From positions 501,731-565,730 of the forward strand of contig OZ242318.1 of assembly GCA_965208105.1 (NCBI GenBank): DNA of 64,000 nucleotides, in the 5' to 3' direction. Source of the DNA: Candidatus Latescibacterota bacterium. Lineage in GTDB: Bacteria > Latescibacterota > UBA2968 > UBA8231. Both the position numbers and the translations under genes were made by a program. The notes under the pieces were generated by a model. It was not told the DNA's origin. It saw only the letters and a program-made list of their open reading frames with translations, and did no database searches. This document shows, in pieces, positions 14,022 through 32,082 of the stretch (positions within the stretch are counted from its first letter, which is position 1; the number at the start of each line of letters is the position of its first letter).

Positions 14022-15532
14022 AATCCTGGTTCCTCTTTATTTTTTCCGGCCTTACCGTCTTCGCTCCGGCCCATGCCGCTGAACAGGGCCTGACAAAAGA
14101 GCAGCAACTCAGCAAGCTCCGTCTCCAGGAGCGTCTCCTATCGCTCGAGGAGCGCCGAACCCGCCTCCAGACTCACAGAGAGGAACTGGACGCCACCCGC
14201 GAACTCTTCGACCAAGGCTTCATCGCTCCGCAGAAATTCAAGCAGACCCAAAACCATTACGAACGGGCGCGCTTGGACCACGAGCGGGCCGAGATCCTGC
14301 TCGAAGAGGCCAAACTAGACTTGCTGAAGACGGCCACCCACATCATTGTGGCCGAGGCGCGCAAGTACAAAACCGAAGACGGCAAGATCATGGTGGACAT
14401 TACTCTGGAGAACGCCTCGGATATCCGCGATGCTCTGTTAGTAGACGCAGCCCTTACCGAGGAGGAGGTGCGCATTCTGCTCAAGGTAGAGAATATCTTC
14501 GTCTCCCTGCGTAACGGCCCCATCGTCGGCGAGCCCTACGAGATCCGCGTTCCCGCCCTCGCCGTGGGCGAGCGCCGCCAACTCACCTACCGCCTCCTCA
14601 GTGATAAAAACGCCGTCATCGTCGGCCTCAGCTACTTGGACATCAAGGACGAAAAGCCCGTCATCCTCAAAAAGGGAAGCCAGCAGGAACTGCCCAGCAT
14701 CAACTCGGCCCAGTTCTCGCAGGAAGGCGAATTGAACCAGAAGGTCCACTTTGGGCTCACCCTGCAGCGCCTGGCCGAGGAGGAGCGCAATTTTGCCTTG
14801 GCCGTGGTAGGCTTGCCGCAGCGCATCAACTACGCCTTTGTCAATCGGGGTGCCAAAGTGAACCAGGTCAAATTCGACGAAAACATTTCGGAGGTCGACC
14901 TGGCCCTGGAACTGGAAATTCCCGAGAAGCTGAACGGCCGCTTCATCGGGATCACCCGGACTTTCTTCGCTCTCGTCATTCAGCCTGGAGAGTACGCCCG
15001 CATCAACGCCCTCAAGGCCCGTTACGGCGATGCTCCCCTGCCCGAAAAGGAGGTCAAAGAACTCAAGGCCAACTACGTCAAGCTGGAGTTGGTTCCCGTG
15101 GGCATCGGCAAGCTCGAAGTTCTGATCTCCAACCGCTACCAGGAAATCCAGGCAGGAGAAGGCCTGCAGATCCAGGTCGAGTTTCTCAACCGCGGCACCG
15201 CGGCTGTACAGAACATCAAGGCCGAACTCGACCTGCCCTACGAGTGGGACAGCAGGGTGGAGCCCGCGCTCGTCAAGCTGCTCCAGCCAGGCGAAAGCAC
15301 TCCGGTGCAGATCTGGGCGCGGCCTCCAGAGCACATCGCCGTGGGCGACTACGAAGTGGGATTGGAGGCTCAGGGCCAGGTGGGCACCGAGAATATCGAG
15401 TCTTTGGAGAAGAACATTACCATCCGCATCAGCGCCCGCTCGAATATTACCGGCAATGCCATCCTCATCGGCGTCCTCGTCCTGCTGGTTCTGGGCATTG
15501 GCGTGGCCAGTATAAAAATCAGCCGCAAATAG
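14018..15532 (+). CDS. secreted coiled-coil + NEW3/CARDB-like beta-sandwich protein with C-terminal TM anchor (paralog 1)
   Basis: Signal peptide MKSWFLFIFSGLTVFAPAHAAEQ. About 100 aa heptad-rich region (LDATRELFDQGFIAPQKFKQTQNHYERARLDHERAEILLEEAKLDLLK). C-terminal NEW3-like segment (LQIQVEFLNRGTAAVQNIKAELDLPYEWDSRVEP...GDYEVGLEAQG). TM tail NAILIGVLVLLVLGIGVASIKISRK. Confidence 0.75.
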   Translation: MKSWFLFIFSGLTVFAPAHAAEQGLTKEQQLSKLRLQERLLSLEERRTRLQTHREELDATRELFDQGFIAPQKFKQTQNHYERARLDHERAEILLEEAKLDLLKTATHIIVAEARKYKTEDGKIMVDITLENASDIRDALLVDAALTEEEVRILLKVENIFVSLRNGPIVGEPYEIRVPALAVGERRQLTYRLLSDKNAVIVGLSYLDIKDEKPVILKKGSQQELPSINSAQFSQEGELNQKVHFGLTLQRLAEEERNFALAVVGLPQRINYAFVNRGAKVNQVKFDENISEVDLALELEIPEKLNGRFIGITRTFFALVIQPGEYARINALKARYGDAPLPEKEVKELKANYVKLELVPVGIGKLEVLISNRYQEIQAGEGLQIQVEFLNRGTAAVQNIKAELDLPYEWDSRVEPALVKLLQPGESTPVQIWARPPEHIAVGDYEVGLEAQGQVGTENIESLEKNITIRISARSNITGNAILIGVLVLLVLGIGVASIKISRK

Positions 15533-15534
15533 AT

Positions 15535-17067
15535 ATGGCTTTCTTCTACCTTGCCATTGCCGCCGCTCTCCTGCTCTTCACTCCGCCGGCTACGGCCGCC
15601 AAGGATCTACGCACCAAGGAGCAGCGCCTTTACGATATTCAGCTACGCAACGCCCAGTGGCAGATAGACAAGGCGCGGCTCGACATGGAAATCAAGCGGA
15701 GCGATTACGATGAGATCCAGGAACTCTTCGACCAGAAGATCAGTACCCTGGAGGCACTCAACGAGGCGCGACGCCACTACCAGCAAGCCAAGCTCAAATA
15801 CGATCAGGCCGTGATCAACCTCGAGTCGAGACGCCTCTCCTTTCTCAGGGACGCCACCCACATCTCGATTGTCGAGGCCAAGAAGTACCGCACCCCTGAG
15901 GGTTACCGCCAGGTGGAGATCACCTTGGAGAATGCCTCTAACCTCAACCAGGCCGCCTCGCTCAATCCCGACAAGAGCCTGGACGAGGTGAAGGCTCTGC
16001 TCGAAATCCAGAATGTCCGGATATCCGTGCGCCAGAACAATGACCTGATCATCGGCGACCCCTACGAGATTCTCGTACCCTCCTTCAGACTAGGCGAGCG
16101 CAAAAACCTGGTCTTTCGTTTGCTCAATGACTTGGACGATGTGAATATATCTTTGATCCTGCGCGACAACCAGCGGGAAGACTTCAGGATTGTGCTGCGT
16201 AAGGAGTCTCCCCAGGATATCCCCACCATTAATTCCGTGCAGTTTTCCCAAGAGGGCAACCTCAACTCCCGGGTCCACTACGACCTCATCTTGGAGCGTC
16301 TGGCCGAAGACGAGAAGACCTTTCACTTGAACGTCATCAACCTACCGCGCGAGATCGACTTCGCCTTTCTCGACAAGGCCACCAACGCCAGCCTCACCCA
16401 GGTGAAGTTCAGCGAAGAGGTCACCCGTCAGCAACTCGAACTCGAGATCCAGATCCCCGAAAAACTCAGCCGGCACTACGTTGACCAGACTATCGAGTTC
16501 TACGTCTTTGCCACCGACCAGGAAGGCTTCCAGCAGGTCAGCCAGTTGAACCGCAAGTACGGCGTCAAACGCATGGAATTGGAGGACATCAACTCCATCA
16601 AGGGGAACAAGGAGCGCTTTGAATTGATTCCCCGGGGACAAGGCGCCCTGGAGACGATCATCGCCAACCGCTACCAGGAGATCAGGGTGGGCGAAGAGGT
16701 CACCGTGCGACTCGACCTGCTCAATACGGGGACCCTTGAGGTCGAGGCGGCGCACTTGATTTTGACCCCCCCGTTGGGGTGGAGCCGTGAGGTCGCGCCC
16801 GATACCATCGCCCGCATCATCCCCGGCGAGAAAGAGCCCGTCAATATCATTCTCTCCCCCCCAGCCGAAATAGATGTAGGCGAGTACGGCGTCCGGGTGG
16901 AGGCGGCTGGCTACGTGGGCAGCGAGAAGGTCGAGGCCGAGGAAAAGGACATCACCATCCGGGTCGAGGCGCGCGCGCGTATCGTGCGCAATGCCCTCAT
17001 CGTCGTCGCGGTAATCGCCTTGGTGGTGAGCGTGGCTGTCTGGAGCATCAAGGTCAGCCGCCGATAA
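15535..17067 (+). CDS. secreted coiled-coil + NEW3/CARDB-like protein with C-terminal TM anchor (paralog 2)
   Basis: ATG at 15535, 3 nt after the previous stop. Signal peptide MAFFYLAIAAALLLFTPPATAAKD. Same domain order as 14018..15532 (VTVRLDLLNTGTLEVEAAHLILTPPLGWSREVAP...GEYGVRVEAAG; TM tail NALIVVAVIALVVSVAVWSIKVSRR). The track ORF start at 15244 runs through the upstream gene. Confidence 0.75.
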   Translation: MAFFYLAIAAALLLFTPPATAAKDLRTKEQRLYDIQLRNAQWQIDKARLDMEIKRSDYDEIQELFDQKISTLEALNEARRHYQQAKLKYDQAVINLESRRLSFLRDATHISIVEAKKYRTPEGYRQVEITLENASNLNQAASLNPDKSLDEVKALLEIQNVRISVRQNNDLIIGDPYEILVPSFRLGERKNLVFRLLNDLDDVNISLILRDNQREDFRIVLRKESPQDIPTINSVQFSQEGNLNSRVHYDLILERLAEDEKTFHLNVINLPREIDFAFLDKATNASLTQVKFSEEVTRQQLELEIQIPEKLSRHYVDQTIEFYVFATDQEGFQQVSQLNRKYGVKRMELEDINSIKGNKERFELIPRGQGALETIIANRYQEIRVGEEVTVRLDLLNTGTLEVEAAHLILTPPLGWSREVAPDTIARIIPGEKEPVNIILSPPAEIDVGEYGVRVEAAGYVGSEKVEAEEKDITIRVEARARIVRNALIVVAVIALVVSVAVWSIKVSRR

Positions 17068-17289: not shown

Positions 17290-18012
17290 ATGCTTGAAAT
17301 CATCTCCATGTCCAAGCACTACGGCGAGGTGCAGGCGGTCGACGAGCTCAACCTCACCATCCGCCCCGGTGAAATCTTTACTATGCTGGGGGCAAATGGC
17401 GCCGGCAAGACCACTACTCTTATGGTATCCCTTGGCTTTACCGAGCCGACGGCAGGCACGGTGAAGATCTGCGGCGTCGACGTGACCAGGGATCCCTTGG
17501 AGGCCAAAAAACACGTGGCTTACGTGTCAGAAAACGTCATGCTCTACGGCAATTTCACCGCCCGTCAAAACCTGGATTTCTTCGCCAAGTTAGGGGGGCG
17601 CAAGGACGCCACCGACGAAGAGTACGAGCGCATCATGGAGCGGGTGGGTCTGCAGGCGGACGCCTTCAACCGGAGGGTAAAAGGCTTTTCCAAAGGCATG
17701 CGCCAGAAGCTGGGCATCGCCATTGCGATCGTCAAAAACGCCGAGGTCATTTTGCTGGACGAGCCCACTTCAGGGCTGGATCCCCAGTCAGGGACCGAGT
17801 TTTTGCAGCTTTTGACCGAACTCAGGCACGAAGATAAAACCATCTGGATGACCACGCACGATGTCTTCCGCGCCAAGGCCATCGCCGACCGGGTGGGGAT
17901 CATGGTGAAGGGCAAGCTGGTAAAGACCTTTACGCGCGAGGAGTTGGAACGCGAGGATCTGGAGAAGATCTACGTGGAGTATGTCAGCCAGGAGGTGGGA
18001 CAGGCCGCCTGA
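17290..18012 (+). CDS. ABC-2-type transporter ATP-binding protein (no intact cognate permease adjacent)
   Basis: Walker A GANGAGKTT, signature FSKGMRQKLGIA, Walker B ILLDEPTSGLD. 240 aa, single NBD. Confidence 0.9.
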   Translation: MLEIISMSKHYGEVQAVDELNLTIRPGEIFTMLGANGAGKTTTLMVSLGFTEPTAGTVKICGVDVTRDPLEAKKHVAYVSENVMLYGNFTARQNLDFFAKLGGRKDATDEEYERIMERVGLQADAFNRRVKGFSKGMRQKLGIAIAIVKNAEVILLDEPTSGLDPQSGTEFLQLLTELRHEDKTIWMTTHDVFRAKAIADRVGIMVKGKLVKTFTREELEREDLEKIYVEYVSQEVGQAA

Positions 18013-18097
18013 GCACAACTCAGAAGTACTTACTTGTGATCGCCAAAAAAGAGATTGTCCACAATATCCTGAGTTTCAGGTCTGTGGCGATCCATGG
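18009..18097 (+). pseudogene. stub of an ABC-2 permease gene (first ~28 codons only)
   Basis: The frame overlapping the ATPase stop reads (L)STTQKYLLVIAKKEIVHNILSFRSVAIHG. This resembles the N-termini of the intact permeases at 24966/26383/27802 (MFKTILFKEIKGQLGTVTF). It has no ATG (CTG at the position of the usual ATGA overlap). Similarity ends near 18097. Confidence 0.55.
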
Positions 18098-18102
18098 GTT
18101 GC

Positions 18103-18196
18103 CAGTGGCAGTTTCGCGATCGAGTCAACGCCGGGGCAAGGCACGCGCTGCCTGCTGGCGGTTCCATTTTTATATCCAAGCCGGAGGGGACCCTCC
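18103..18196 (+). pseudogene. 3'-terminal remnant of a second sensor-kinase gene
   Basis: Encodes SGSFAIESTPGQGTRCLLAVPF, colinear with the C-terminus GGHFAIESSLGQGTSCLLTIPF of the kinase at 10677..11822. Nothing upstream of the G2 box is present. The reading frame runs into the next ATG without its own stop. Confidence 0.7.
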
Positions 18197-18628
18197 ATGA
18201 ATACGCAGGTGTTATTAGTAGAGGACCACGAGGCCGTGCGCCAGGAGCTGCGCTTGTTGCTTGAGCAACAAAGCGGAATTGAGGTAGTCGCCGAGGCCGG
18301 CGACGGCCGCACGGCCGTCGCCTTGGCCTCCACCTGTCTACCCGACATTGCGGTCATGGACGTTGGCCTGCCCCACCTGAATGGCATTGAGGCGACGCGA
18401 CAGATACGCGTCAAGGCGCCGGGCGTGAACGTGGTGGCGCTGTCGGTGCACGCGGACCGGCGTCTTGTAGACGGCATGTTTCAAGCAGGGGCTTCGGCGT
18501 ATGTGTTGAAAACGGCGGCTACCCGCGAGTTGGTGGAAGCGATCCGGCAGGTACAGGCCGGCCGCAAGTTCGTAAGTCCCGAATTGATCGCCCTCTTCGG
18601 CGAGGACTATGGCGCGTCTTCCTTCTGA
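18197..18628 (+). CDS. REC-only response regulator (LuxR-type paralog lacking the HTH domain; possibly a truncated gene)
   Basis: 143 aa. MNTQVLLVEDHEAVRQELRLLLEQQSGIEVVAEAGDGRTAVALAS...DIAVMDVGLPHLNGIEATRQIR is colinear with the RR at 11819..12466 up to ...SPELIALFGEDY, then diverges and stops. GGAGGGG RBS 7 nt upstream. Confidence 0.7.
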   Translation: MNTQVLLVEDHEAVRQELRLLLEQQSGIEVVAEAGDGRTAVALASTCLPDIAVMDVGLPHLNGIEATRQIRVKAPGVNVVALSVHADRRLVDGMFQAGASAYVLKTAATRELVEAIRQVQAGRKFVSPELIALFGEDYGASSF

Positions 18629-18859: not shown

Positions 18860-20854
18860 ATGAAAAACATGAACATTAATAATGTATGCCTCTTCCTCGT
18901 GGGTATAATAGTATGGCCAACCTGTGGGACGGCAAGTTGGCACCTGAAGGCGTCCGGATATGAAGTTTCCAAGGTAAGGTATTCGATTTTCGGCGAAGGG
19001 TTGAAACAACACCGAGGATACTACTTTCCCGAATACCTGCCCGCAGACCGCGCGTTACATGTCGGATTCAAGCCCATCCGCTTCCAGAAATTTTCCGCCC
19101 TGGCCGAAGCTCTCGGCGCGAAAAGCGAAAAAATCCACGCTTGGAAAACCGAATTTGAGTCTCCTGTCAGGTGCTTGGACCAGATCACCTTCTTGTATCG
19201 CCGCATATATGCCAGGAACGTCAGTGAATACACAATTTATCTCCAATCCCCTCAGACTGAACAGTGGTACAGAAAAAGGATAATAATCCCTTTTAAGGGG
19301 TACCAGATCCCTTCATACGACGCGATTTCGCAATGGGAACCGTTGGTAGACGACGGCTCCGAAGAGGTATCCCAGTTTTTGAGCGAGGTTAACCATTTCG
19401 ATAAAATTGGCCAATTGGCGATCGTGGTTACTCCCTCGGATACGGACTTCGATTTTGTCATCGGAGACTTGCAAATAGTGGACCGGGAAATCGGCTATGC
19501 CGATTTCCATCATCCTTTTTTCGACCCGATTTTGAGCGAGGATTCCGCCCAGTACATCGAAAGAGATTCCTTTTACAATGCCTCAGGTATTCCCGCCCTG
19601 CTCCTTCCCATCAGTTGTTATGCCATGCACAGGAATTACGGGTCGGTTTTCCATTTCGACCCAGGGAATCGGGAAGTGGATGCCGGAGACATCAGGGACC
19701 TGAAAGTCAACGTTATCAAGCGAATTTTAGAGCTGTACTCATTCTATGAAGAACGCGGATTGGATAGGAAAAGCGCCCTGAACAGGTTTGCCTTCATCGA
19801 GAATTACGGGCTGGACAGAGAAGCTTTCGAGGACAGCGTCCGCGCTTTATTGGCAGATTTTCATGATGCCCATCTATCCGTAGCAAACAACGCCCATCTA
19901 TCCATAGCAAACAAGAAGAACAGATGCGCTTTCAATCATCCATTGGCGCTGTACAATATCGGCGGCAAAGTCTACGTGGCGGCGGTGTTCGACTCCCTAC
20001 TCGCGGACGATATAGAAGTGGGTATGAAGGTGCTCAAATTTGATGGAGTACCTGTGATTGAAGCGATAGACAGGGAAAGCGAGCATTACCGGGGCAGCAG
20101 CAAAATAAGAAGAAGGAAAGCGACGAGAAACCTGCTCGCATGCAGGCGAGACGAAAGGGCAACATTGAAACTTGCATCTGTTGATGGGGCAGTTAAAGAC
20201 GTCCTGATTGAAGACAGGAAAGTGCGGATTCCGTCGAATCTCGTGCCGCGACACGGAGAATTCAGGGTAGAAAGTGGGATAGTGTATTTTCGTATCCGCC
20301 AATGGACCTATGACGTGTGGATCCGGTTTTTGAACCATGCGGATGAACTCGAAAGCGCGAAGGGCCTGATCATCGATTTGAGGTCCAACGGTGGAGGTGA
20401 CGGCGGCACGGTGCTAAGGATGGTATCGGCGTTCATAGACGAGAACGCGCTATGTGGGAGCGAGTACTGTCCCGCCGACGGCAGAATCGAGAGCATGGTG
20501 ATAAGACCCAACGACAAATTCCATTTCGATCTGCCCGTCGTCATCCTGGCCAATGAGGCGACTGCCTGCGCAAGCGAGAACTTCATCGATATAATGAGAT
20601 CTACCAATCGGGCCATCATGGTGGCGGATAGTCACACACAGGGCCTTTTTTCGTCCAGGATCGACTTGATATTCCCGGACGGGATGAGGATTCATACCAA
20701 TAGCTTATCCAAACCGTTGAGACCCGATGGTTCTTCATACGAGGTAAAGGGGCTCGAGCCAGACATCTGGGTACACTTGAACACAATTGATGATCTGGCA
20801 CATCGGGAAGACAAGATACTGCGAACCGCAAATCATCTGCTGGAAGCGCAGTAG
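18860..20854 (+). CDS. S41-family (C-terminal processing / tail-specific type) peptidase with PDZ-like domain, N-terminal signal/anchor
   Basis: 664 aa. N-terminal hydrophobic segment VCLFLVGIIVWPTCG. PDZ-like GGKVYVAAVFDSLLADDIEVGMKVLKFDGVPV. S41 motifs GLIIDLRSNGGGDG and VVILANEATACASENF (Ser motif). The usual G-K-G lysine motif is not evident (DSHTQGLFSS). Lower-GC codon usage. Confidence 0.7.
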   Translation: MKNMNINNVCLFLVGIIVWPTCGTASWHLKASGYEVSKVRYSIFGEGLKQHRGYYFPEYLPADRALHVGFKPIRFQKFSALAEALGAKSEKIHAWKTEFESPVRCLDQITFLYRRIYARNVSEYTIYLQSPQTEQWYRKRIIIPFKGYQIPSYDAISQWEPLVDDGSEEVSQFLSEVNHFDKIGQLAIVVTPSDTDFDFVIGDLQIVDREIGYADFHHPFFDPILSEDSAQYIERDSFYNASGIPALLLPISCYAMHRNYGSVFHFDPGNREVDAGDIRDLKVNVIKRILELYSFYEERGLDRKSALNRFAFIENYGLDREAFEDSVRALLADFHDAHLSVANNAHLSIANKKNRCAFNHPLALYNIGGKVYVAAVFDSLLADDIEVGMKVLKFDGVPVIEAIDRESEHYRGSSKIRRRKATRNLLACRRDERATLKLASVDGAVKDVLIEDRKVRIPSNLVPRHGEFRVESGIVYFRIRQWTYDVWIRFLNHADELESAKGLIIDLRSNGGGDGGTVLRMVSAFIDENALCGSEYCPADGRIESMVIRPNDKFHFDLPVVILANEATACASENFIDIMRSTNRAIMVADSHTQGLFSSRIDLIFPDGMRIHTNSLSKPLRPDGSSYEVKGLEPDIWVHLNTIDDLAHREDKILRTANHLLEAQ

Positions 20855-20903
20855 AATCCATAGGCTTTGGAAGGCGACAAACTGTAAGAAAGGAGAACAT
20901 GCC

Positions 20904-21062
20904 ATGAAAGAGCTCATTAAGCCCAACTTGACTGAGGAAGAGTGCGAGAATAACGAGGTCGCGGCATATTGCGACCTTTATTCCTGCGCGCCCGTGAGTT
21001 GCAACCTTTGGTCGTGTCAACCCGTTTCGGGTGATGACGAGTCCGGGGACATTCTGTTCTAA
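20904..21062 (+). CDS. Cys-rich precursor-peptide candidate (52 aa) with four C-X3-S pentads
   Basis: AAGGAG (20889-20894) lies 9 nt before ATG 20904. MKELIKPNLTEEECENNEVAAYCDLYSCAPVSCNLWSCQPVSGDDESGDILF. It sits immediately upstream of a radical SAM/SPASM gene. The 91-aa track ORF from 20787 overlaps the end of the upstream gene and is less likely. Confidence 0.75.
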   Translation: MKELIKPNLTEEECENNEVAAYCDLYSCAPVSCNLWSCQPVSGDDESGDILF

Positions 21063-21248
21063 TTGCCAATTGTTCAGCGGAGGCCATAACAGCGAAGGAC
21101 CATTCGCCTGGAACACGTCTCTTGACCGTTTGACCCCATAACTACTTTTCGATCAGTTTGTCGCCTTCCACGTCTTTCAGAAGCCGTCTTAGACCCTCGG
21201 TGAGGATCACTAGGAACTTTAAGGAGGCTTCTTAAAAAGGAAAATGAG

Positions 21249-22730
21249 ATGTTTAAGTTGAGCTATTATACCTTCATCATCCCCGTAACCGAGAAGGGGA
21301 TGTACCTCGCCTATAATTCATTTACCAATGCATTGCTGGAATTGGAGTGGCATGAAGGCAAGAAGATGCTGGAGTGGAAAAAGAAGGATGCCATTCCCTC
21401 TTCGGAACTCGACAGCGAAGAAAAGCGCTTTGTAAACGCTTTGCTCAACAATCACTTTCTGGTAGACGAGGGGGTTGATGAGAAAGAGCGCTTGCATCGC
21501 CGCATTTCTACCCAGAAAGAAAGGTTCTGGAGAGAACCAGCGACCATGGCGCTCACCATATTGCCGACTATCTCGTGCAATATGGGTTGTTCCTATTGTT
21601 TTGAGGGATACAAGCCGTTCGGCAAGGTTATGAACAATGAGGTCATGGACGATATAGCCGAATTCGTGGTAAGAGAAATCAAGCAAAGCACTGTCGTCAG
21701 TTCCTTCAAAAAAATGTTCATCCAGTGGTACGGGGGGGAGCCCCTGCTGCAACCACATGTCGTCGATAGACTTTCGGAAAAATTGTACCGAATCGCCGAC
21801 GACAACCAAATCCCCTATACTTCGATGATCATTACGAACGGAACCTATCTAACGCCCGCTATATGGGATCTGTTAAAGGAAGCGAGAATTGACCGGATAC
21901 AAGTGACCATTGATGGCCACAAGGACTCCCACAACAGGCAACGCCCCCTCACCTTGCCGATCATCGGCCAGGAAATAGAGGCGGGTAGCTATGACACCAT
22001 ACTGGAAAACCTGAAGTATTTTCCGGACAAGATGGCTCTTAATATCCGGATAAATTCGGATAAGAATATAATCAATTCCCTGGGCGACCTCCTGGACGAC
22101 CTGGAGGAAATTGGCCTGTGGCCTCAGCAGGCTAGCCATGTGAGCCTGACCCTCGCCCATAAGGAAACTCCTTATGAAGAGTCGGGAGTAGTAGACATCG
22201 AGTCTCAGTACTTGAGCCTCAAGCAGCAAACCAAGGCGCAGAAGATATTCCAGGACATGAAGCTCAATCACTACAACAATTGGGCCTCCAAAAATAACAG
22301 GGTTTTGGCCAGGAAGCGTCTGGCCTACCCTGAACCGGCAACTTTTGTATGTGGGACTGCCTCGCTGCCTTACAGTTTTTCCATAAGTTACGACGGGCAT
22401 ATTCACCAGTGCATGGAGCAAGTCAACGATCCTAAAGCTAAGTCACATTACATTGGCGATACCTACAATATCCACGATCCCCTGCGGAAAATTTTCCTGA
22501 ACTGGGATAAATTCCTTCACCATCCAATGTGCACTGATTGCAGGGTACTGCCCATATGCGACATGGTTTGTCCTCACAAGGACCCGCCCGAAGCGTGCTG
22601 TGATTGGAAGGTAGACCTCAAATCGCGGTTGAAGGAGCAGTATATCGCGTCCATTGATACGCCCCACCTAATTGAGTCTTTCGACGCAGTAGAACAACAG
22701 CGGCAGAAAGATTTCACCCTCGTGATATAG
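21249..22730 (+). CDS. radical SAM / SPASM-domain peptide maturase
   Basis: CNMGCSYC (CxxxCxxC, 21576-21599). GGEPLL motif. SPASM 7-Cys pattern CGTASLPYSFSISYDGHIHQC ... CTDCRVLPICDMVC (C-x2-C-x5-C-x3-C). About 100-aa N-terminal extension that could be a leader-recognition (RRE-like) domain. Confidence 0.9.
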   Translation: MFKLSYYTFIIPVTEKGMYLAYNSFTNALLELEWHEGKKMLEWKKKDAIPSSELDSEEKRFVNALLNNHFLVDEGVDEKERLHRRISTQKERFWREPATMALTILPTISCNMGCSYCFEGYKPFGKVMNNEVMDDIAEFVVREIKQSTVVSSFKKMFIQWYGGEPLLQPHVVDRLSEKLYRIADDNQIPYTSMIITNGTYLTPAIWDLLKEARIDRIQVTIDGHKDSHNRQRPLTLPIIGQEIEAGSYDTILENLKYFPDKMALNIRINSDKNIINSLGDLLDDLEEIGLWPQQASHVSLTLAHKETPYEESGVVDIESQYLSLKQQTKAQKIFQDMKLNHYNNWASKNNRVLARKRLAYPEPATFVCGTASLPYSFSISYDGHIHQCMEQVNDPKAKSHYIGDTYNIHDPLRKIFLNWDKFLHHPMCTDCRVLPICDMVCPHKDPPEACCDWKVDLKSRLKEQYIASIDTPHLIESFDAVEQQRQKDFTLVI

Positions 22731-22744
22731 GGCCCCTAATACCC

Positions 22745-24640
22745 ATGCGAATAGCAATCATAGACAGCGGAATAGATGCGGGACACAAGCGTCTCAAGAA
22801 TTGCGTGTGCAGCGGCGTTTCGCTGCGGTGCGGCGAAGAAAAACCCACCCTTAGCTACGAATACGGCGACTGCCTGGGCCACGGGACCGCCTGTGCGAGC
22901 CTCGTGCACAAGGTGGACCCGCAGGCGGAAATAGTGGCGGTGAAGATATTTCACCGCGAGCTATCCGCCAAAGAGGAGCTACTTTGTGAAGGTATCAGAT
23001 GGTGTTTGGGCAACGACATCGACGTCATCAACCTGTCCCTCGGAATCCTGACGGATAGCCCCTCGCAAGCGCTGATCGGCCTGCTCGAAGAGGCCTTTGT
23101 GAAAAACGTCGTCGTCGTCTCGGCGGCGCACAACGACTTGAGGCTGGAATGCTACCCGGCGCATTTCCACACCGTGTTCGGCGTGACCTGGGGAAAGGTG
23201 GACCATCACTGCTTGTATGGTTATCTGCCCGACTCGGCCATCGAATTCATCGCCAAGGGGACGATACAGCGGGTCGCATGGAAAGACGGGGGCTATTCCC
23301 TATTGAGCGGAACGAGTATGGCCTGTGCCCATTTCACCGGCATCACCGCGGGCGTACTAAGGCAGAGCCCCTCTATGTCGGTCGGGGAACTCAGGAGCCA
23401 CCTTATCGGGAAGGCGGACGCGAATATTCGGGCGCTGCAACCTGGCAGCAAAATTCAGGGAGCCTTCCCGAGGATCATCAGCGGCGATCTGGACGAGGCG
23501 GGACGGAGGCTGTTCCGCTGGGAGGAAAAGATGGATTGGCTGGGGGACCTGGCCCTTTTTCCCGCCAGCGAAAAGGAGATGAGCGGCTTTGTCGAATTTC
23601 CCGGCTATTGTACGCAAAAGATAGCGAAGTACATTGACTACCCAAGAAACATGAAGAGGCAGGCCCCAAACGGCAGCGGCAAAAGCGATGCTATCAAAAC
23701 ATACGACAAGATGCTGGACGCGGCGGCTTGCGAAGACTTCGACACGATGGTTCTGGGATATTTTTTTGATCAACTCTTTGAGGCGAATATCCGCTTCGGC
23801 AACGACTTGCTGGCCGTGTGCATGGAGGCCCAAAAGAACCTCTACGTGTACGACCCCAGGTTGAAAGCTCATATCGATAGCCTGAACGGAAGTGCCAAGC
23901 CTTTGTTTCGGCTGTATATGCCGGAGGTCAATGGCCGGTTGCACGACCGTGTCATGCAGTTTCGCCATCTGCCCAGGGTACGGGTGCCCGTCATGGCAGT
24001 GATGGGCACGAGCAACCGCCAGGGGAAGTTCACCGCGCAACTCCGGCTCAAAGACATCCTCAACAGAGAGGAATACAAAGTCTGCCACCTATCCACTGAG
24101 CCCCAGGGTGAGTTGTTCGGGGCGGATTTCAGTTTTCCCTATGGCTATAACGGGACAGTTTCCATCCACCGCAAAAAGTGGTCGATGTTCCTCCGCACCC
24201 TGCTCAAAGCCGTCCAGGAATACAACAGACCCCATATCATCCTGACCGGGACACAAGGCATGACGATTCCCCGGGCACCCAACCAAGCCCCGCTGGGAAA
24301 TGAATGCGACAGCCTGGAATTCATGTACGGTGTCCATCCTGATGCTTTAGTTTGCGCCATAAATCCCCAGGATTCCATCGAACTGGTCGTCGACGCGTGC
24401 CAGGCGGCCCGGATATTCTGCGGGGCGGAACCCTTGTTTTTCATCATGACTCCCTGGATGAGAGACTACACGCGCGCCGGCAACGGCCGCATGGTACGCC
24501 ATCACCGATACCTGCATAAGGAAGAGATGGCGGAGAAAATGAACCATTTCCAGGAGGTATTGCACAAGCCGGTCATCGATATCATGGATTTGAACAATGA
24601 CAAGCTAATCTTGGACGCCATCCAGGATTTCTTTTCGTGA
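22745..24640 (+). CDS. S8 subtilisin-like serine peptidase fused to a ~400-aa C-terminal P-loop (DUF1611-like?) domain
   Basis: Catalytic triad contexts IAIIDSGIDAGH (Asp), CLGHGTACASLV (His), LLSGTSMACAHF (Ser), all within the first ~230 aa and with no signal peptide. The C-terminal part contains VMAVMGTSNRQGKFT (G-x5-GK-type loop). Confidence 0.75.
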   Translation: MRIAIIDSGIDAGHKRLKNCVCSGVSLRCGEEKPTLSYEYGDCLGHGTACASLVHKVDPQAEIVAVKIFHRELSAKEELLCEGIRWCLGNDIDVINLSLGILTDSPSQALIGLLEEAFVKNVVVVSAAHNDLRLECYPAHFHTVFGVTWGKVDHHCLYGYLPDSAIEFIAKGTIQRVAWKDGGYSLLSGTSMACAHFTGITAGVLRQSPSMSVGELRSHLIGKADANIRALQPGSKIQGAFPRIISGDLDEAGRRLFRWEEKMDWLGDLALFPASEKEMSGFVEFPGYCTQKIAKYIDYPRNMKRQAPNGSGKSDAIKTYDKMLDAAACEDFDTMVLGYFFDQLFEANIRFGNDLLAVCMEAQKNLYVYDPRLKAHIDSLNGSAKPLFRLYMPEVNGRLHDRVMQFRHLPRVRVPVMAVMGTSNRQGKFTAQLRLKDILNREEYKVCHLSTEPQGELFGADFSFPYGYNGTVSIHRKKWSMFLRTLLKAVQEYNRPHIILTGTQGMTIPRAPNQAPLGNECDSLEFMYGVHPDALVCAINPQDSIELVVDACQAARIFCGAEPLFFIMTPWMRDYTRAGNGRMVRHHRYLHKEEMAEKMNHFQEVLHKPVIDIMDLNNDKLILDAIQDFFS

Positions 24641-24954
24641 ACGGGCGTGAGGACGGCACCATGAGAGAAGCTATCGAGCAGCGATTGTACGAACTGATAG
24701 GGACGTTTGGAGACCAACCGATCAACTGCTCTGTTGAGAGCGAAGTGCGAAGGATGCTCCATATCATCTTGAGCGAGTCCATACAAGCGATGGAATTCGT
24801 CATCGCCATTGAGAACGAATTCGAGATCGAGTTCGACGACGAAGACATCTCCATCCAATTCTTCCTCGACCCGGATCATATCATCCAATCCGTGCTGAGA
24901 GGTCTGGCGCGGAAGGAGGCGGATGGCCTAACATCATCAAGTGCTGTCACCTGA
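24637..24954 (+). CDS. acyl-carrier-protein-like small protein
   Basis: LHIILSESIQAMEFVIAIENEFEIEFDDEDI aligns with the ACP helix II region (DSL replaced by ESI, Ser retained). GTG 24637 overlaps the upstream stop (GTGA). Alternative ATG at 24661. Confidence 0.6.
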   Translation: MNGREDGTMREAIEQRLYELIGTFGDQPINCSVESEVRRMLHIILSESIQAMEFVIAIENEFEIEFDDEDISIQFFLDPDHIIQSVLRGLARKEADGLTSSSAVT

Positions 24955-24965
24955 GGAGGTCTGCC

Positions 24966-26366
24966 ATGTTCAAGACCATTCTGTTCAAGGAAATCAAGGG
25001 CCAATTAGGCACGGTGACATTCGCCGTCTGGATGGGCGTCTCGTGCTTTCTGGTCTGGATGGCCCTGGAGAGCGGTTATTCGAGATACGAGCACAAGCAT
25101 CAGCAATACCTCGATATGGACAGGGTGGTCAAAGACGGCCTCAGCAAAGAATACGACGTCAACAAGGCGGAAGAGGAGCTCTTCCGGGTTTTGCGGCAGC
25201 CGTCGGTGTTGAGCGCAGTTGTCTACGGGCTGGAAGGCAAGATGCCGATCTATATGAGTGTCAATCCCAACGGCGTACGCTCCGGTTCGGGGTCAGGCAC
25301 GGAAGAATCCGTATTGAGCCTGTTCGGGGAGCTGGATTTTCTCCTGGTCATCGAGCTGATTCTCGGGCTGATGGCCGTGGTGCAGGCGGCCAGTCTGGTG
25401 TCTTCGGAGAGGGAAAACGGCACTCTGAAGCTGATATTGGCCAACCCGGTTTCCCGCAGCACCGTCTTGCTGGGCAAGTGTATGGGCGGATACGCTGTCG
25501 TCGCCTTCGTCTTTGTGTTTTCCTCCTTTATCGGGTTTTTGCTTCTCTCGATCAGGGGGTTTCCACTTTTCGAGTCGGACGTGCTCGCGCCGATACTCCT
25601 GATCTTGGCCGGGAGCCTGGTCTATTTGCTGTGCATCTTTCTGGTGGGGATGGTCGGTTCTATCCTGTTCCTGAACACTCAAACGGCCTTGATATTGAGC
25701 GTGTCGATCTGGGCCGCGCTGTCTTTTCTCGTTCCCAAAAGCGCCCGGATCGCGGCCGAGTTGATCCGCCCGGTAGAGGACGAGCGGACGGTTTACTTGC
25801 GTCAGAAGCACGCCCGTGAAGACCTGATCAGGGCCCAGCATGAGGAAATGAGCGAGAATTACCGCCAGGAGTTGACTCCAGAATGGCTGATGGCCAACTT
25901 CGCGACCTTGGCAGAGGAAGGCGCGGCAGTTTGGAAGAAATACAGCGACCGGATCTCCAAAGACCTGACCACCATCGCCGAGGACCACCACCGGGAGAAG
26001 AAAGCGCAGGAATCTCTGGGTAAGGTGCTGTCCCGGGTATCCCCCGCGGGCAGTTTCCGGCTGCTCTTGGCGAATTTGTCCGGTACGGGCGACCAGGTGA
26101 AGTGGGAATTACTGCAAGTGGCCTGGAACTACCAGAAAACGGTCAATGACAAGGTCTTCGCCAAAAAACCCTTGATCGCTGTCCAGAATATGAGTTTCCC
26201 CCATGATATGGGTACAGAGGATCCGCCGCCCCCACCTCTGGTCATGGCGCCGCCCCTCGGCAGTGTCTTGACCGAATCCGCGCTAGACACAGCCTTATTA
26301 TGCGTCTATGCCGTCATGTTGTTCATGCTGGCCTATATGCTGTTCCTGCGGCGCTCTATCGTGTAA
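24966..26366 (+). CDS. ABC-2-family permease-like membrane protein with long C-terminal extension, paralog 1
   Basis: MFKTILFKEIKGQLGTVTFAVWMGV. Conserved SSERENGTLKLILANPVSRSTVLLGK. Multiple TM helices. Pro-rich stretch and terminal TM helix near the C-terminus. Confidence 0.8.
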   Translation: MFKTILFKEIKGQLGTVTFAVWMGVSCFLVWMALESGYSRYEHKHQQYLDMDRVVKDGLSKEYDVNKAEEELFRVLRQPSVLSAVVYGLEGKMPIYMSVNPNGVRSGSGSGTEESVLSLFGELDFLLVIELILGLMAVVQAASLVSSERENGTLKLILANPVSRSTVLLGKCMGGYAVVAFVFVFSSFIGFLLLSIRGFPLFESDVLAPILLILAGSLVYLLCIFLVGMVGSILFLNTQTALILSVSIWAALSFLVPKSARIAAELIRPVEDERTVYLRQKHAREDLIRAQHEEMSENYRQELTPEWLMANFATLAEEGAAVWKKYSDRISKDLTTIAEDHHREKKAQESLGKVLSRVSPAGSFRLLLANLSGTGDQVKWELLQVAWNYQKTVNDKVFAKKPLIAVQNMSFPHDMGTEDPPPPPLVMAPPLGSVLTESALDTALLCVYAVMLFMLAYMLFLRRSIV

Positions 26367-26382
26367 TAGAGGAGTCATCCCC

Positions 26383-27786
26383 ATGTTCAAGACTATTCTG
26401 TTCAAGGAAATCAAGGGCCATTTAGGCACGGTGACATTCGCCGTCTGGATGGGCGTCTCGTGCCTGGTGGTATGGATGGCTCTGGAGAGCGGCTATTCGA
26501 GATACGAGCACAAGCATCAGCAATACCTCGATCAGGAACGAGAGGCGAAAAAAAGCCTCAGTAAAGAATACTTTGCGTTCTGGCCGGAAGAGGAAATATT
26601 CCGGGTGCTGCGCCAGCCGTCGGTGTTGAGCACCATCGTCTATGGGCTTGAAGGTGAGCTGCCGGTTTATCTGAGCGTCAACCCCAACGGCGTCCGGTCC
26701 GGTTCGAAGGGGATGGGTGGAGCTATGTCGCGCCTGTTGGGAGAGCTGGATTTTCTCCTGGTCATCGAGATGGTGTTCGGGCTGATGGCCGTCGTGCTGG
26801 CGGCCACTCTGGTGTCGTCGGAGGGAGAAAACGGGACGCTCAAGCTGATATTGGCCAACCCGGTCTCCCGCAGCACGGTCTTGTTGGGGAAGGGGCTGGG
26901 CGCCTTCGCCATCATCGCCTTTGTCTTTGTGTTTTCCACTTTTATCGGGCTTTTGTTCCTGTCGGTGAAGGGGTTTCCCCTCCTCGAACGGGAGGTGCTC
27001 GCGTCACTGCTCGTGATTGTGGCGGGAAGTCTGGTTTATTTGCTGTGCGTTTTCCTGGTGGGGATGATCTGCTCCATCCTGTTTTTGAACACCCGGGTGG
27101 CCTTGGTGCTGAGCGTCTTGCTGTGGGCGGTGCTGTCTTTTCTGCTGCCCAAAAGCGCCGGGACTGCGGCGGAGTTGATGCGCCCGGCAGAAGACGGTTG
27201 GACCGTTTACTTGCGTCAGAAATCCGCCCGTGAAGCCCATCTCAAGGCCCACCACGAGGAAGTGAACAAGCATTACCCCCATCTGGGTCCAGCCCCGGAC
27301 TCGAGGGATCTGGACTACCCAGGGATTACGGAGACTGCCGTAGCGGCTTGGGGGAAGTACAGCGACCGGATCGCCAAAGAAGTGACCACCATCGCCGAGG
27401 ATCACAATCGCAACAAGCAAGCCCAGGAAGCCCTGGGGAAGGTGCTGTCCCGGCTATCCCCCGCAAGCAGTCTCCGCCTGCTGTTGGCCAATGTGGCCGG
27501 CACGGGCGACCAGGTGAAGCGCAACTTCCTGCAAGCGGCCTGGAACTATCAGAATACGGTTGACGACAAAGTCTTCTCAAAAAGAATCCATATCACTATC
27601 AGGAAGAATCAGGGTTGGCCCTGGGACATGGGTGCAGAGCGACCGCCGCCCCTGCCCCCGCTCCTGCCGCCGTCTCTCGAGAGTGTCTTGGTGGAGTCGG
27701 CGTTAGAAATCGCTTTATTGTTCGTCTATTCCGTCTTCCTGTTCATGCTGGCCTATATGCTTTTCATTCGTCGATCCATCGCGTAG
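26383..27786 (+). CDS. ABC-2-family permease-like membrane protein, paralog 2
   Basis: ATG 26383 after GAGGAG. The first ~150 nt are nearly identical to paralog 1. SSEGENGTLKLILANPVSRSTVLLGK. Confidence 0.8.
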   Translation: MFKTILFKEIKGHLGTVTFAVWMGVSCLVVWMALESGYSRYEHKHQQYLDQEREAKKSLSKEYFAFWPEEEIFRVLRQPSVLSTIVYGLEGELPVYLSVNPNGVRSGSKGMGGAMSRLLGELDFLLVIEMVFGLMAVVLAATLVSSEGENGTLKLILANPVSRSTVLLGKGLGAFAIIAFVFVFSTFIGLLFLSVKGFPLLEREVLASLLVIVAGSLVYLLCVFLVGMICSILFLNTRVALVLSVLLWAVLSFLLPKSAGTAAELMRPAEDGWTVYLRQKSAREAHLKAHHEEVNKHYPHLGPAPDSRDLDYPGITETAVAAWGKYSDRIAKEVTTIAEDHNRNKQAQEALGKVLSRLSPASSLRLLLANVAGTGDQVKRNFLQAAWNYQNTVDDKVFSKRIHITIRKNQGWPWDMGAERPPPLPPLLPPSLESVLVESALEIALLFVYSVFLFMLAYMLFIRRSIA

Positions 27787-27801
27787 TAATGGAGTCTTAT
27801 C

Positions 27802-29229
27802 ATGTTCAAGACCATTATGTTCACGGAAATCAGGAGTCGCTTGGGCACGGTAACTTTCTCCCTGTGGCTGGGCGTCTCGTGCTTGGTGGTATGGATGGCT
27901 CTCGAGAGCGGCTACTCGAGATACGAGCACAAGCATCAGCAGTACCTCGATCTGAAACGGGCGGCCCAAGATGGCCTCAGCAAAGCATACATGCCGGTCG
28001 TAGCGGAAGAGGACATATTCCGGGTTCTGCGTGAGCTCTCCGTGTTGAGTGCCATCGTCTACGGGCTGGAAGGCGAGATGCCGGTCTATATGAGCGTCAA
28101 TCCCAACGGCGTACAGCCCGGGGCGGGGATAGCGGATAAATCCTTGTTGGACCTGTTGGGAGAGTTGGATTTTCTCCTGGTCATCGAGCTGATTCTCGGG
28201 TTGATGGCCGTGGTGCAGGCAGCCACTCTGGTGTCGTCGGAAGAGGGAAACGGGACGCTCAAACTGATGTTGGCCAACCCGGTCTCTCGCAGCACCGTCC
28301 TGTTGGGGAAGGGGCTGGGCGCCTTCGCCGTCATCGCCTTCACCCTTTTGTTTTCCACCCTTTTCGGACTTTTTTTGCTCTCGGTCCGGGGATTTCCGCT
28401 CTTCGAGGCAGCGGTGCTCGCGCCGATACTCTTGATCTTGACGGGGAGCCTGGTCTATCTGCTCGTCATCTTTCTGATCGGGCTGACCTGCTCTATTCTG
28501 TTTCTGAATTCCCAGGTAGCTTTGATCCTGAGTGTCTCGCTCTGGGCTGCGCTGTCTTTTCTCGTGCCCCAAAGCGCCTGGACTACGGCGGAGTTGATCC
28601 GCCCGGCAGAGAACGAGCGGACGGTTTATGTGCGGCAGAAATACGCCCGCGAAGCCCATCTCAATGCCTACCACGAGGAATTGAACAAGCGTTACCCCCA
28701 CCTGCAACCTGACGCAGAGGGCAATGCGGACTGGTCGGGGGTCAACCAGACCGAGTTGACGAAGGACGCGGTGGCGGTTTGGGCGAAATACAGCGACCGG
28801 ATCGCCAAAGAAGTGACCACCATCGCCGAGAACTACCACCGGAACAAGCAAGCGCAGGAAGCCCTCGGTAGGGTGCTGTCCCGGGTCTCCCCCACCGGCA
28901 GTTTCCGCCTACTCTTGGCCAACCTGGCCGGTACGGGCAACCAGGTGAGGTGGAAATTCTTGCAAGCGGCCTGGGACTACCAGAATATGGCAAACGATAA
29001 AGTCTTCTCAAAAGATCCCATGATCACTATCGGACCCTCGAGTTGGTGGCCCAGTATTATGCGGGGTGCAGATAACCCTCCTCCCCCACCTCCCCCACCA
29101 CCGGTCATGGTTCCGTCCCTCGGCAGCGTCTTGACAGAGTCGGCCTTGGACATGGCCATGCTGTTCATTTACGCCGTCGTGCTCTTCATGTTGGCGTATT
29201 CGCTGTTCATGCGTCGGTCCATTGTATAG
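27802..29229 (+). CDS. ABC-2-family permease-like membrane protein, paralog 3
   Basis: MFKTIMFTEIRSRLGTVTFSLWLGV. SSEEGNGTLKLMLANPVSRSTVLLGK. PPPPPPPPP tract before the last TM helix. Confidence 0.8.
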   Translation: MFKTIMFTEIRSRLGTVTFSLWLGVSCLVVWMALESGYSRYEHKHQQYLDLKRAAQDGLSKAYMPVVAEEDIFRVLRELSVLSAIVYGLEGEMPVYMSVNPNGVQPGAGIADKSLLDLLGELDFLLVIELILGLMAVVQAATLVSSEEGNGTLKLMLANPVSRSTVLLGKGLGAFAVIAFTLLFSTLFGLFLLSVRGFPLFEAAVLAPILLILTGSLVYLLVIFLIGLTCSILFLNSQVALILSVSLWAALSFLVPQSAWTTAELIRPAENERTVYVRQKYAREAHLNAYHEELNKRYPHLQPDAEGNADWSGVNQTELTKDAVAVWAKYSDRIAKEVTTIAENYHRNKQAQEALGRVLSRVSPTGSFRLLLANLAGTGNQVRWKFLQAAWDYQNMANDKVFSKDPMITIGPSSWWPSIMRGADNPPPPPPPPPVMVPSLGSVLTESALDMAMLFIYAVVLFMLAYSLFMRRSIV

Positions 29230-29266
29230 TCCGCCGCTCCCATTGCATGAGGATGAGTTGAGAGTT

Positions 29267-31015
29267 ATGAAACGCGTTCCTGACTCGGAACCTGGGATGA
29301 TCAGAGCTACACTGAAGAGAATCGGATTATACCGCGCAATTATGGCCAACGGACTGAATATATTGCTTCTGTGTATTATCGCCGCGGCAGTGGTAACGTT
29401 GACCATAGCCAAGCCCATCGTGTTTTCCAGGATAATTGACAAGGGAATCCTCAGTGAGGACTGGAGCGTGGTCCGCTCGCACTGCGTCTACTTCCTCATT
29501 ATTGCATTGGGCTTGAGTCTTTTCGGGTTAGCTCACTCTTTAGTCGCGTCGGTAATACACAACAAAATATCCTTGATAATCAAACAGGTTCTCCTGGAAC
29601 GGATCTTTCTCCTGGACGCCGGATTCTTCCACACGAACAAGACCGGAGACGTCATTACCAAGCTGGACAACGACGTATCGAGCATCCAGACCTACATCAT
29701 GTCGGTCCTGAACGCCTCCATGAACAATTTTATCAGCTTTCTAGGGGCGATGATCTATATCGGCTACGTGCAATGGAGGATGTTGATCGTCGGGTTCCTG
29801 GTGACCCCGTTTGTGGGTCTGGCCATTTACGCGTTCCGCAACGTGTTATACTCCAAGGACAAGAAGACCCGGGAGCGGAAGTCCGACGTAAATGACGCGA
29901 TAATAAACGCCGTCGACCATCAGCTTTACCTGAGGAAGGTCGGATTGGACTCGAGATCGCTGTCGAAGTGCAAATGGACCTTGGACCAGTACCGGGTCGC
30001 ATCCATCTTTTACGACCTATGGCGCGGCGGCAGCGGGTCGCTAAACAACCTCCTCCTTGCCGTCGGCTATATTGTTACCATCGGCTACGGTTCGTGGCTG
30101 GTCTTCAAAGGCATGCTCAGCGTCGGCAATCTTTTCGCATTTCTAACCCTGCGCACCATGTTCCTTGCCCCGCTGACGGTCTTCAAGGAAATCTACAGTG
30201 GGTACTTTTCGACTAAATCCGCATTCAAGCGCCTGGACGATTTCTTCTGCCATCGGATCGAGAAGGGTCTGGAACGCATGGACAACTCGAAACCCGAATC
30301 GTTTGGAGAGATCTGTTTGAGCAACGTATCGTTTGCCTATCCAGGGCAACACTGTCTGTTGAACCACATTGACGTTGAATTCGGCAGGGGCTGGAATATC
30401 CTGGCGGGTAGAAACGGTGCGGGGAAATCGTCATTGATCGACCTGCTCATGAAGATTTCGTCTCCAAGGGAGGGGCGCATCTTGGTCGACGGCGTAGATA
30501 TTGGCTCGCTCAACAATCAGTCATGGAGGTCCAACATCAGTGCCATGCCTCAAACCACGTACTTGTTCAAAGGGTCGTTGCGGGAGAACATTCGCCTGTA
30601 TGACGAGGGCATAACCGACGGTCGAATTCAGGCCGTGCTGAACCGCCTGAGCTTCGATTTCGATCCCGAAAAGCTACCAGCAGGGCTCGATACGAACATT
30701 ATGGAGGGAGGGACCAATTTTTCTGGGGGCCAGCGCCAAAAAATCGCGATCGCCAGGACCGCCCTCAAAGACACCCCTATCTACATCTTCGATGAACCCC
30801 TGTCCAGTCTGGATATGCGTTCGCGCGGCCTGGCCTTGGAGTACTTAAAAAAGGCGCTCAAAGGCAAGATCGTCCTAATCGTTTCACACGATGACATGGG
30901 CGAATATACGGATCGGGAGTACAGAATGAAAGACGGGGCCATCGTGACCACCGCCGCAAACGGGTTGGATCGTGTTCCAGAGGAGGGTTCCAATACTTTG
31001 CATATATCAGTCTGA
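29267..31015 (+). CDS. ABC exporter, fused transmembrane + ATP-binding domains (type I exporter, no C39 peptidase domain)
   Basis: ATG 29267. N-terminal 6-TM-type domain. Walker A GRNGAGKSS, signature FSGGQRQKIAIART, Walker B IYIFDEPLSSLD. Confidence 0.85.
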   Translation: MKRVPDSEPGMIRATLKRIGLYRAIMANGLNILLLCIIAAAVVTLTIAKPIVFSRIIDKGILSEDWSVVRSHCVYFLIIALGLSLFGLAHSLVASVIHNKISLIIKQVLLERIFLLDAGFFHTNKTGDVITKLDNDVSSIQTYIMSVLNASMNNFISFLGAMIYIGYVQWRMLIVGFLVTPFVGLAIYAFRNVLYSKDKKTRERKSDVNDAIINAVDHQLYLRKVGLDSRSLSKCKWTLDQYRVASIFYDLWRGGSGSLNNLLLAVGYIVTIGYGSWLVFKGMLSVGNLFAFLTLRTMFLAPLTVFKEIYSGYFSTKSAFKRLDDFFCHRIEKGLERMDNSKPESFGEICLSNVSFAYPGQHCLLNHIDVEFGRGWNILAGRNGAGKSSLIDLLMKISSPREGRILVDGVDIGSLNNQSWRSNISAMPQTTYLFKGSLRENIRLYDEGITDGRIQAVLNRLSFDFDPEKLPAGLDTNIMEGGTNFSGGQRQKIAIARTALKDTPIYIFDEPLSSLDMRSRGLALEYLKKALKGKIVLIVSHDDMGEYTDREYRMKDGAIVTTAANGLDRVPEEGSNTLHISV

Positions 31016-31023
31016 TATTCAGA

Positions 31024-32082
31024 ATGAGCTACCAGATGTCGACTAAAGAGTTATACTTACCGCTCAATCCCAATCCTCCGATTAGAGTCTATCTGCATCA
31101 TGCCTACCCTCTGTCAATTTTATCAAGTACCGAAGAGTATTTGCCCTGGTTCCGAAGCAACTTTGTTCAACTGTATAGCGGGGGTCCCGATCATATCGAT
31201 TTCCTCGTACCCATGCTTACACACGCAGACCATCCTCAGATCTACTATTCTCCTCTTCTGAACGTGGTTCGGCTCAATAGAAAAATCGTCGATTTGATAA
31301 ATGCCGATTCTGAAATCTGGAGATTCATTGTCGACTGTATAACAGAGGGCTTCTACGTCGATATCGAGGTTGATGAATATCACGTTCCTTTTACTCGCGC
31401 ATTCCATAATTTTCATACTGGACATTCTCTTCTGATTCATGGCTACAATACTGCTCAGGAAAAATTCAGTGCCATCGGTTACGATCGAAACGGCAAATAC
31501 GGCATCCAGCTTGTCGATTTTGCCAGCACACTCAAAGCTTACGGTAGCCGGGAAAGTAAAAATCACATGGCAATAGTGTCTCATGCTTTAAGACAGAAAA
31601 CGGGCCGCGATAGCAACATCCAGTGCGAATTCACGCTCGAGTTGGTGGTTGACATGCTCAAGGACTACATCCACTCAATCAACACGCTTGACCGGTTGAA
31701 GTTGGTTTTGAGATCGAACTATAGATCGAATTCCCTGCGTTTTGGAATTGAGGCCGTCAGAAAATTGCGATTTGAACCTAGTGCGGCGAATGCGCCTTTG
31801 GATCTGCGTCCTTCTCACTGTCTCTGGGAGCATAAGAAATGTATGGCCGAGAGGGTTCAGTACCTGGTAGAAAACGGATATTTGGACAAGGTTGGAAATT
31901 TGGTATTTGAGTTCGGAAAAATTGCTAAAATGGCGGAATCACTCAGGCTGCTGGCAATCAAGTACAACTTGCAGAAACAACGAAAAATACTCCATAAAAT
32001 GGACAACCTGAGAAACAAAATAGTTGAGGGTGAGAAATTCCTCATAAAAAATTTACTGGACCGACTACCGTCATGCCCATGA
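31024..32082 (+). CDS. hypothetical protein (orphan, last gene of the lower-GC operon)
   Basis: 352-aa ORF, AT-rich codon usage like its neighbours, 8 nt after the exporter stop. No motif I can assign with confidence. Confidence 0.6.
   Translation: MSYQMSTKELYLPLNPNPPIRVYLHHAYPLSILSSTEEYLPWFRSNFVQLYSGGPDHIDFLVPMLTHADHPQIYYSPLLNVVRLNRKIVDLINADSEIWRFIVDCITEGFYVDIEVDEYHVPFTRAFHNFHTGHSLLIHGYNTAQEKFSAIGYDRNGKYGIQLVDFASTLKAYGSRESKNHMAIVSHALRQKTGRDSNIQCEFTLELVVDMLKDYIHSINTLDRLKLVLRSNYRSNSLRFGIEAVRKLRFEPSAANAPLDLRPSHCLWEHKKCMAERVQYLVENGYLDKVGNLVFEFGKIAKMAESLRLLAIKYNLQKQRKILHKMDNLRNKIVEGEKFLIKNLLDRLPSCP

What the first reader, a model, noticed from the sequence alone, without database searches (positions are those of the whole stretch)
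18860..32082. Lower-GC 13-kb operon: Cys-rich peptide, rSAM/SPASM maturase, S8 and S41 proteases, ACP-like protein and five ABC components (candidate uncharacterised RiPP system)
Ten co-directional, tightly packed genes form this block. Most gaps are under 20 nt and there is a GTGA overlap at 24637-24640. Its base composition is visibly AT-richer than everything outside it: my hand counts on sampled lines give about 40-50% G+C here against about 60-65% in the flanks. It therefore looks horizontally acquired.

Content, in order: S41/PDZ peptidase, a 52-aa Cys-rich peptide with a good RBS, a radical SAM enzyme with a CNMGCSYC cluster motif and a complete 7-Cys SPASM motif, an S8 subtilase fused to a ~400-aa P-loop domain, an ACP-like protein, three tandem ABC-2 permease paralogs, a fused TMD-NBD exporter, and an orphan 352-aa protein.

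Established knowledge: rSAM/SPASM enzymes next to small Cys-rich ORFs are RiPP maturases (sactipeptides, ranthipeptides, QhpD type). From memory, an rSAM plus acyl-carrier-related protein plus large accessory protein cassette around a Cys-rich peptide exists only as a bioinformatically defined, experimentally uncharacterised family from Clostridia (CcpM-type). I recall the accessions as TIGR04065/04066/04068/04069, but these need checking.

Here the cassette sits in a high-GC diderm genome next to TolC-type export genes and under a response-regulator-type promoter. Product, chemistry and biological role are unknown.
Basis: partly seen in the sequence, partly recalled or inferred. Interest (0 to 1): 0.9.

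Follow-up and report, generated by a model that had tools for sequence, protein, structure and literature searches.

The report
Arginase-less FlmA-type RiPP gene cluster

Summary
All ten genes are at the stated coordinates.

It is a RiPP (ribosomally made, enzyme-modified peptide) cluster, but not CcpM-type. The 52-aa peptide and the radical SAM/SPASM enzyme hit NCBIfam FlmA (28.3 bits, cut-off 30) and FlmE/OhkG (378 bits, cut-off 500; CcpM only 79). The peptide shares the family's N-terminal KELIKP and C-terminal DILF motifs.

Published flm/ohk clusters (Bacteroidota only; only the peptide-arginase step characterised) have the same core: S41, rSAM, S8-DUF1611, ACP-like protein, ABC exporter.

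This window belongs to a subclade without arginase. Cores carry 2-4 Cys and no Arg. The host is Gemmatimonadota/Latescibacterota-like. The small ORF is conserved in ten related loci, with a hypervariable core.

The cluster extends upstream to about 10.7 kb: histidine kinase, response regulator, TolC-like protein, two adaptor-like proteins, and the ATPase the ABC-2 permeases lack.

Three new points:
- The "S41" protein has an invariant Cys where the catalytic Ser should be.
- The "orphan" 352-aa protein has the fold of carrier-protein-dependent ligases (CtaG/BtrH).
- A close relative carries a canonical BtrH-type enzyme at that position.

The chemistry remains inferred. Verdict: new variant of a known, uncharacterised kind.

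The parts
10677..11822 (+). PAS-domain histidine kinase (HisKA_3 type)
   Evidence: Pfam PAS_9, HisKA_3 and HATPase_c. A histidine kinase with a LuxR-type response regulator sits directly upstream of the S41 gene in L002, L007, L082 and L083.
11819..12466 (+). LuxR/NarL-type response regulator
   Evidence: Pfam Response_reg plus GerE. It is 40-47% identical to the regulators next to the homologous clusters.
12678..14021 (+). TolC-like outer membrane efflux protein
   Evidence: Pfam OEP, two stretches; TIGR01844 at E = 1.4e-20. A 57%-identical homolog lies downstream of the cluster in L085 and L086.
14018..15532 (+). NEW3-domain protein a: signal-like N-terminus, C-terminal hydrophobic segment, possible periplasmic adaptor
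   Evidence: Pfam NPCBM_assoc. Weak N-terminal match to RND membrane-fusion proteins, E = 0.004. Hydrophobic segments. 69% identical to the homolog in L085 and L086.
15535..17067 (+). NEW3-domain protein b, a paralog of a (39% identity)
   Evidence: The start was moved to the ATG at 15535; the mechanical ORF begins at 15244.
17290..18012 (+). ABC ATPase of DrrA/GldA/lantibiotic-protection type; the nucleotide-binding partner that the three ABC-2 permeases lack
   Evidence: Pfam ABC_tran. TIGR01188 drrA at E = 4e-61. 60% identical to an ATPase beside ABC-2 permeases in the Bacteroidales cluster L003.
18197..18628 (+). Receiver-only response regulator (start taken at Met73 of ORF 17981-18628)
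   Evidence: Pfam Response_reg at residues 77-189 of the ORF.
18860..20854 (+). Exported S41-fold peptidase with Cys570 at the nucleophile position (FlmF/OhkF counterpart); proposed to trim the C-terminal tail
   Evidence: PF03572, 72 bits. Cys570, His338 and Glu628 are invariant in 14 cluster-linked homologs; the Lys position holds Leu. All 14 homologs have a signal-like N-terminus.
20904..21062 (+). Precursor peptide, 52 aa: MKELIKPNLTEEECENNEVAAYCDLYSCAPVSCNLWSCQPVSGDDESGDILF
   Evidence: NF052472 FlmA family, 28.3 bits, E = 1.5e-6. Shares KELIKP and DILF with FlmA1-3. Conserved at the same position in L001, L002, L007 and L082-L085 and, by tblastn, in L086 and L087.
21249..22730 (+). Radical SAM/SPASM peptide maturase, FlmE/OhkG-like
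   Evidence: NF052473, 378 bits over the full length (cut-off 500; next best 196). C110/C114/C117 plus seven SPASM Cys invariant.
22745..24640 (+). Cytoplasmic S8 subtilase (QhpE-like, no prodomain) fused to a DUF1611/TIGR04066-like P-loop domain (FlmH counterpart)
   Evidence: PF00082 and PF07755. QhpE 125 bits; TIGR04066 44-46 bits. D7/H46/S191 and G421/G427/K428 invariant in 45 sequences. AF2 pLDDT 89. 485 homologs at E <= 1e-10; 114 of the 120 listed carry both Pfam domains.
24637..24954 (+). ACP-like small protein with a conserved SES(I/M/L)Q motif (FlmJ counterpart)
   Evidence: Sub-threshold ACP hits. The motif is conserved across loci. 4-nt overlap with the S8 fusion gene.
24966..29229 (+). 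Three tandem ABC-2 permease paralogs (24966-26366, 26383-27786, 27802-29229)
   Evidence: PF12679 at 87-100 bits each. 68-69% aa and 79% nt identity to one another. Single copy in L001 and L085.
29222..31015 (+). Fused TMD-NBD ABC exporter without a C39 peptidase domain (FlmL/OhkM counterpart)
   Evidence: PF00664 plus PF00005. Present in all related clusters.
31024..32082 (+). 352-aa protein with the bipartite CtaG/BtrH/AziU3-like fold (papain-like N-domain plus helical C-domain)
   Evidence: BtrH_N 28.6 bits against a cut-off of 29.7. AF2 pLDDT 89.4. Foldseek: AziU3 E = 2.5e-8, CtaG about 1e-6, CcbD 2e-4. Homologs at the same position in L002, L007, L082 and L083.

Best explanation
The block is the biosynthetic core of a roughly 21-kb RiPP gene cluster (about 10.7-32.1 kb). 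It belongs to an arginase-less, Cys-rich sister clade of the FlmA / 'DD(I/V)LF' orphan RiPP family.

Proposed course of events (only step 1 is read from sequence; steps 2-6 are inferred):

1. The 52-aa precursor has three parts. A leader begins MKELIKP and is followed by an acidic stretch. A variable core follows (YCDLYSCAPVSCNLWSCQPVS, four Cys spaced every fifth residue). An acidic follower ends in DILF.

2. In the cytoplasm the FlmE-like rSAM/SPASM enzyme cross-links the core Cys. By analogy with its nearest characterised relatives (PapB, CteB, QhpD), the links are most likely thioether S-C bridges.

3. The prodomain-less, QhpE-like S8 domain removes the leader. Its fused DUF1611-type P-loop domain, the ACP-like protein and the CtaG/BtrH-fold protein carry out a carrier-protein-dependent step. 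An acyl or peptidyl transfer is the most likely kind; the exact reaction is unknown.

4. The TMD-NBD exporter moves the peptide to the periplasm.

5. There the exported S41-fold enzyme (Cys570/His338/Glu628) trims the DILF-tagged C-terminal tail.

6. The DrrA-type ATPase, the three ABC-2 permeases, the two NEW3 adaptor-like proteins and the TolC-like channel expel the product across the outer membrane, protect the producer, or both. The PAS kinase and LuxR-type regulator control expression.
For: Family placement:
- The peptide hits NF052472 (E = 1.5e-6). The rSAM enzyme hits NF052473 at 378 bits over its full length, 182 bits above any other model.
- The peptide shares KELIKP and DILF with FlmA1-3.
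- The gene set matches flm: S41 653 aa, rSAM 486 aa, S8 638 aa, an 87-aa ACP-like protein and an ABC exporter.

Conservation:
- The same order (S41, peptide, rSAM, S8-DUF1611, ACP-like, exporter) occurs in L001, L002, L007 and L082-L087.
- In L085 the enzymes are 77-83% identical to those here, but the peptide is only 51% identical. Leader and follower are kept and the core differs. This is the usual RiPP pattern.

Compartments:
- All 14 S41-like homologs have signal-like N-termini. The rSAM enzyme, the S8 fusion and the 352-aa protein have none.

Catalytic residues:
- S8 triad D7/H46/S191 and the P-loop G421/G427/K428 are invariant in 45 sequences.
- Cys570, His338 and Glu628 are invariant in the S41-like set.

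Carrier-protein step:
- The 352-aa model matches AziU3, CtaG and CcbD. CtaG, BtrH and AsbE are carrier-protein-dependent ligases (PMC12865890).
- A family member sits after two carrier domains at the end of a PKS-NRPS.
- L085 carries a canonical BtrH_N plus DUF4872 protein, with Cys18 in the N-terminal YNCIY motif and a later HADHQ...GYDD His/Asp motif, at the same position.
- The flm cluster carries a holo-ACP synthase.

Export module:
- OEP and NEW3 genes are linked to the cluster in a different arrangement in L085 and L086.
- The ATPase is of the ABC-2-partner type.
Against: - No member of the FlmE family has had its reaction shown, so thioether formation is inference from distant relatives (PapB model 109 bits, PDB CteB E = 7e-7).
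- Both NCBIfam scores fall below the curated cut-offs (28.3 against 30; 378 against 500).
- The ACP-like protein is sub-threshold for every ACP model. No phosphopantetheinyl transferase or acyl-loading enzyme was seen among the island's annotated genes.
- The 352-aa family has Ala, not Cys, at the expected nucleophile position (36 of 39 sequences), and the window protein has Asn for Asp at position 142. It may not be a transacylase.
- The structural neighbours of the DUF1611 domain could not be obtained.
- No PDZ domain is detectable in the S41-like protein. Tail recognition by it is a guess.
- The 2025 study showed only that the motif is dispensable for the arginase FlmR and that its loss lowers OhkR's efficiency.
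Confidence: 0.6

Rival explanations
1. This is a CcpM-type (Clostridial TIGR04065/66/68/69) Cys-rich peptide maturation cassette transplanted into a high-GC diderm.
For: The C-terminal half of the S8 fusion is homologous to TIGR04066 (E = 1e-11 to 4e-12). An ACP-like protein follows it. The rSAM enzyme has a weak CcpM hit.
Against: CcpM scores 78.9 bits against 500, whereas FlmE/OhkG scores 378. TIGR04066 scores 44-46 bits against 200. Models TIGR04065 and TIGR04069 were not among the hits returned for the peptide and the ACP-like protein. The precursor carries the FlmA-type KELIKP and DILF motifs.
Confidence: 0.03
2. It is a FlmA-type RiPP cluster, but the rSAM enzyme does something other than Cys thioether formation. 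Examples are C-C or C-O cross-links to aromatic residues, epimerisation, or chemistry on the follower. The Cys would then form disulfides or bind metal.
For: The reaction of the FlmE family is unknown (PMC12703449). SPASM enzymes catalyse many reactions. The window core has Tyr and Trp between the Cys. Cyclophane-forming models appear among the weak hits.
Against: Cys is the only core feature kept across the clade (2-4 Cys). Aromatic residues are absent from the L002 core. The best-scoring named relatives are Cys-peptide maturases: TIGR04463, Clo7bot, Cys-every-fifth CefB and PapB.
Confidence: 0.2
3. It is not a secreted natural product. Instead it is a maturation system for a cross-linked peptide subunit or cofactor, as in quinohemoprotein amine dehydrogenase (QhpC/D/E/F: rSAM thioethers, subtilisin leader removal, ABC export).
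For: The best NCBIfam hit of the S8 domain is QhpE (125 bits, E = 2e-36). The logic of rSAM, then S8, then ABC exporter is the same.
Against: QhpE is below its cut-off (165). QhpD scores 46.7 bits against 453. No dehydrogenase subunit genes lie in the island. The hypervariable core between close relatives, multiple precursor copies in relatives and immunity-type ABC-2 genes all fit a secreted product.
Confidence: 0.05
4. The S41-like protein and the 352-aa protein are non-catalytic binding or chaperone proteins. The ACP-like protein is not phosphopantetheinylated. The pathway is then simply rSAM plus S8 plus export.
For: The canonical Ser/Lys dyad is absent from the S41-like protein. Its best PDB sequence hit is the non-enzymatic IRBP (E = 2e-11). 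Ala replaces the expected Cys in the 352-aa family. All ACP scores are sub-threshold.
Against: Cys570, His338 and Glu628 are invariant, at a spacing that I recall (from memory, not checked here) to match the Ser-His-Glu triad of CPAF-type S41 enzymes. The SES motif and the P-loop are conserved. A canonical Cys-His-Asp BtrH-type enzyme sits in L085. A holo-ACP synthase sits in flm.
Confidence: 0.12

Closest known systems
flm and ohk clusters of Flagellimonas meridianipacifica and Ohtaekwangia koreensis: the FlmA / 'DD(I/V)LF' orphan RiPP family (NCBIfam NF052472, NF052473; PMC12703449)
   Same: - The precursor has the N-terminal (K/Q)xL(I/V)(K/E)P motif and the C-terminal D(I/V)LF.
- The enzyme set matches: rSAM/SPASM of about 490 aa, an exported S41-fold protein of about 650 aa, an S8-DUF1611 fusion of about 635 aa, an ACP-like protein of about 90 aa, and a TMD-NBD exporter.
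   Different: - There is no peptide arginase, cupin/JmjC protein, 2OG oxygenase or FlmG/OhkH-like protein.
- The core has four Cys and no Arg, against two Cys plus Arg.
- Both HMM scores are below cut-off.
- The host is not Bacteroidota.
- Extra components: a CtaG/BtrH-fold protein, and an ABC-2, ATPase, NEW3 and TolC export module.
CcpM system of Clostridia (TIGR04065/04066/04068/04069)
   Same: An rSAM/SPASM enzyme, a Cys-rich peptide, a TIGR04066/DUF1611-like protein and an ACP-related protein occur together.
   Different: All HMMs are far below cut-off or absent. Here the P-loop domain is fused to an S8 protease. The precursor family differs.
Ranthipeptide and SCIFF maturases (PapB, CteB) and QhpD/QhpE of quinohemoprotein amine dehydrogenase
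   Same: An rSAM/SPASM enzyme acts on Cys-containing peptides. A QhpE-like cytoplasmic subtilisin and an ABC exporter follow.
   Different: The sequences are distant: PapB 109 bits against 340, QhpD 47 against 453, QhpE 125 against 165. Those systems have no S41, ACP-like or DUF1611 parts.
CtaG / BtrH / AsbE papain-like, carrier-protein-dependent ligases (PMC12865890), and AziU3
   Same: The 352-aa protein is predicted to have the same bipartite fold. Its His134 sits in an H..L..GY(D/N) motif.
   Different: Ala27 sits where the catalytic Cys is expected. TM-scores are only 0.42-0.48. Function is untested.

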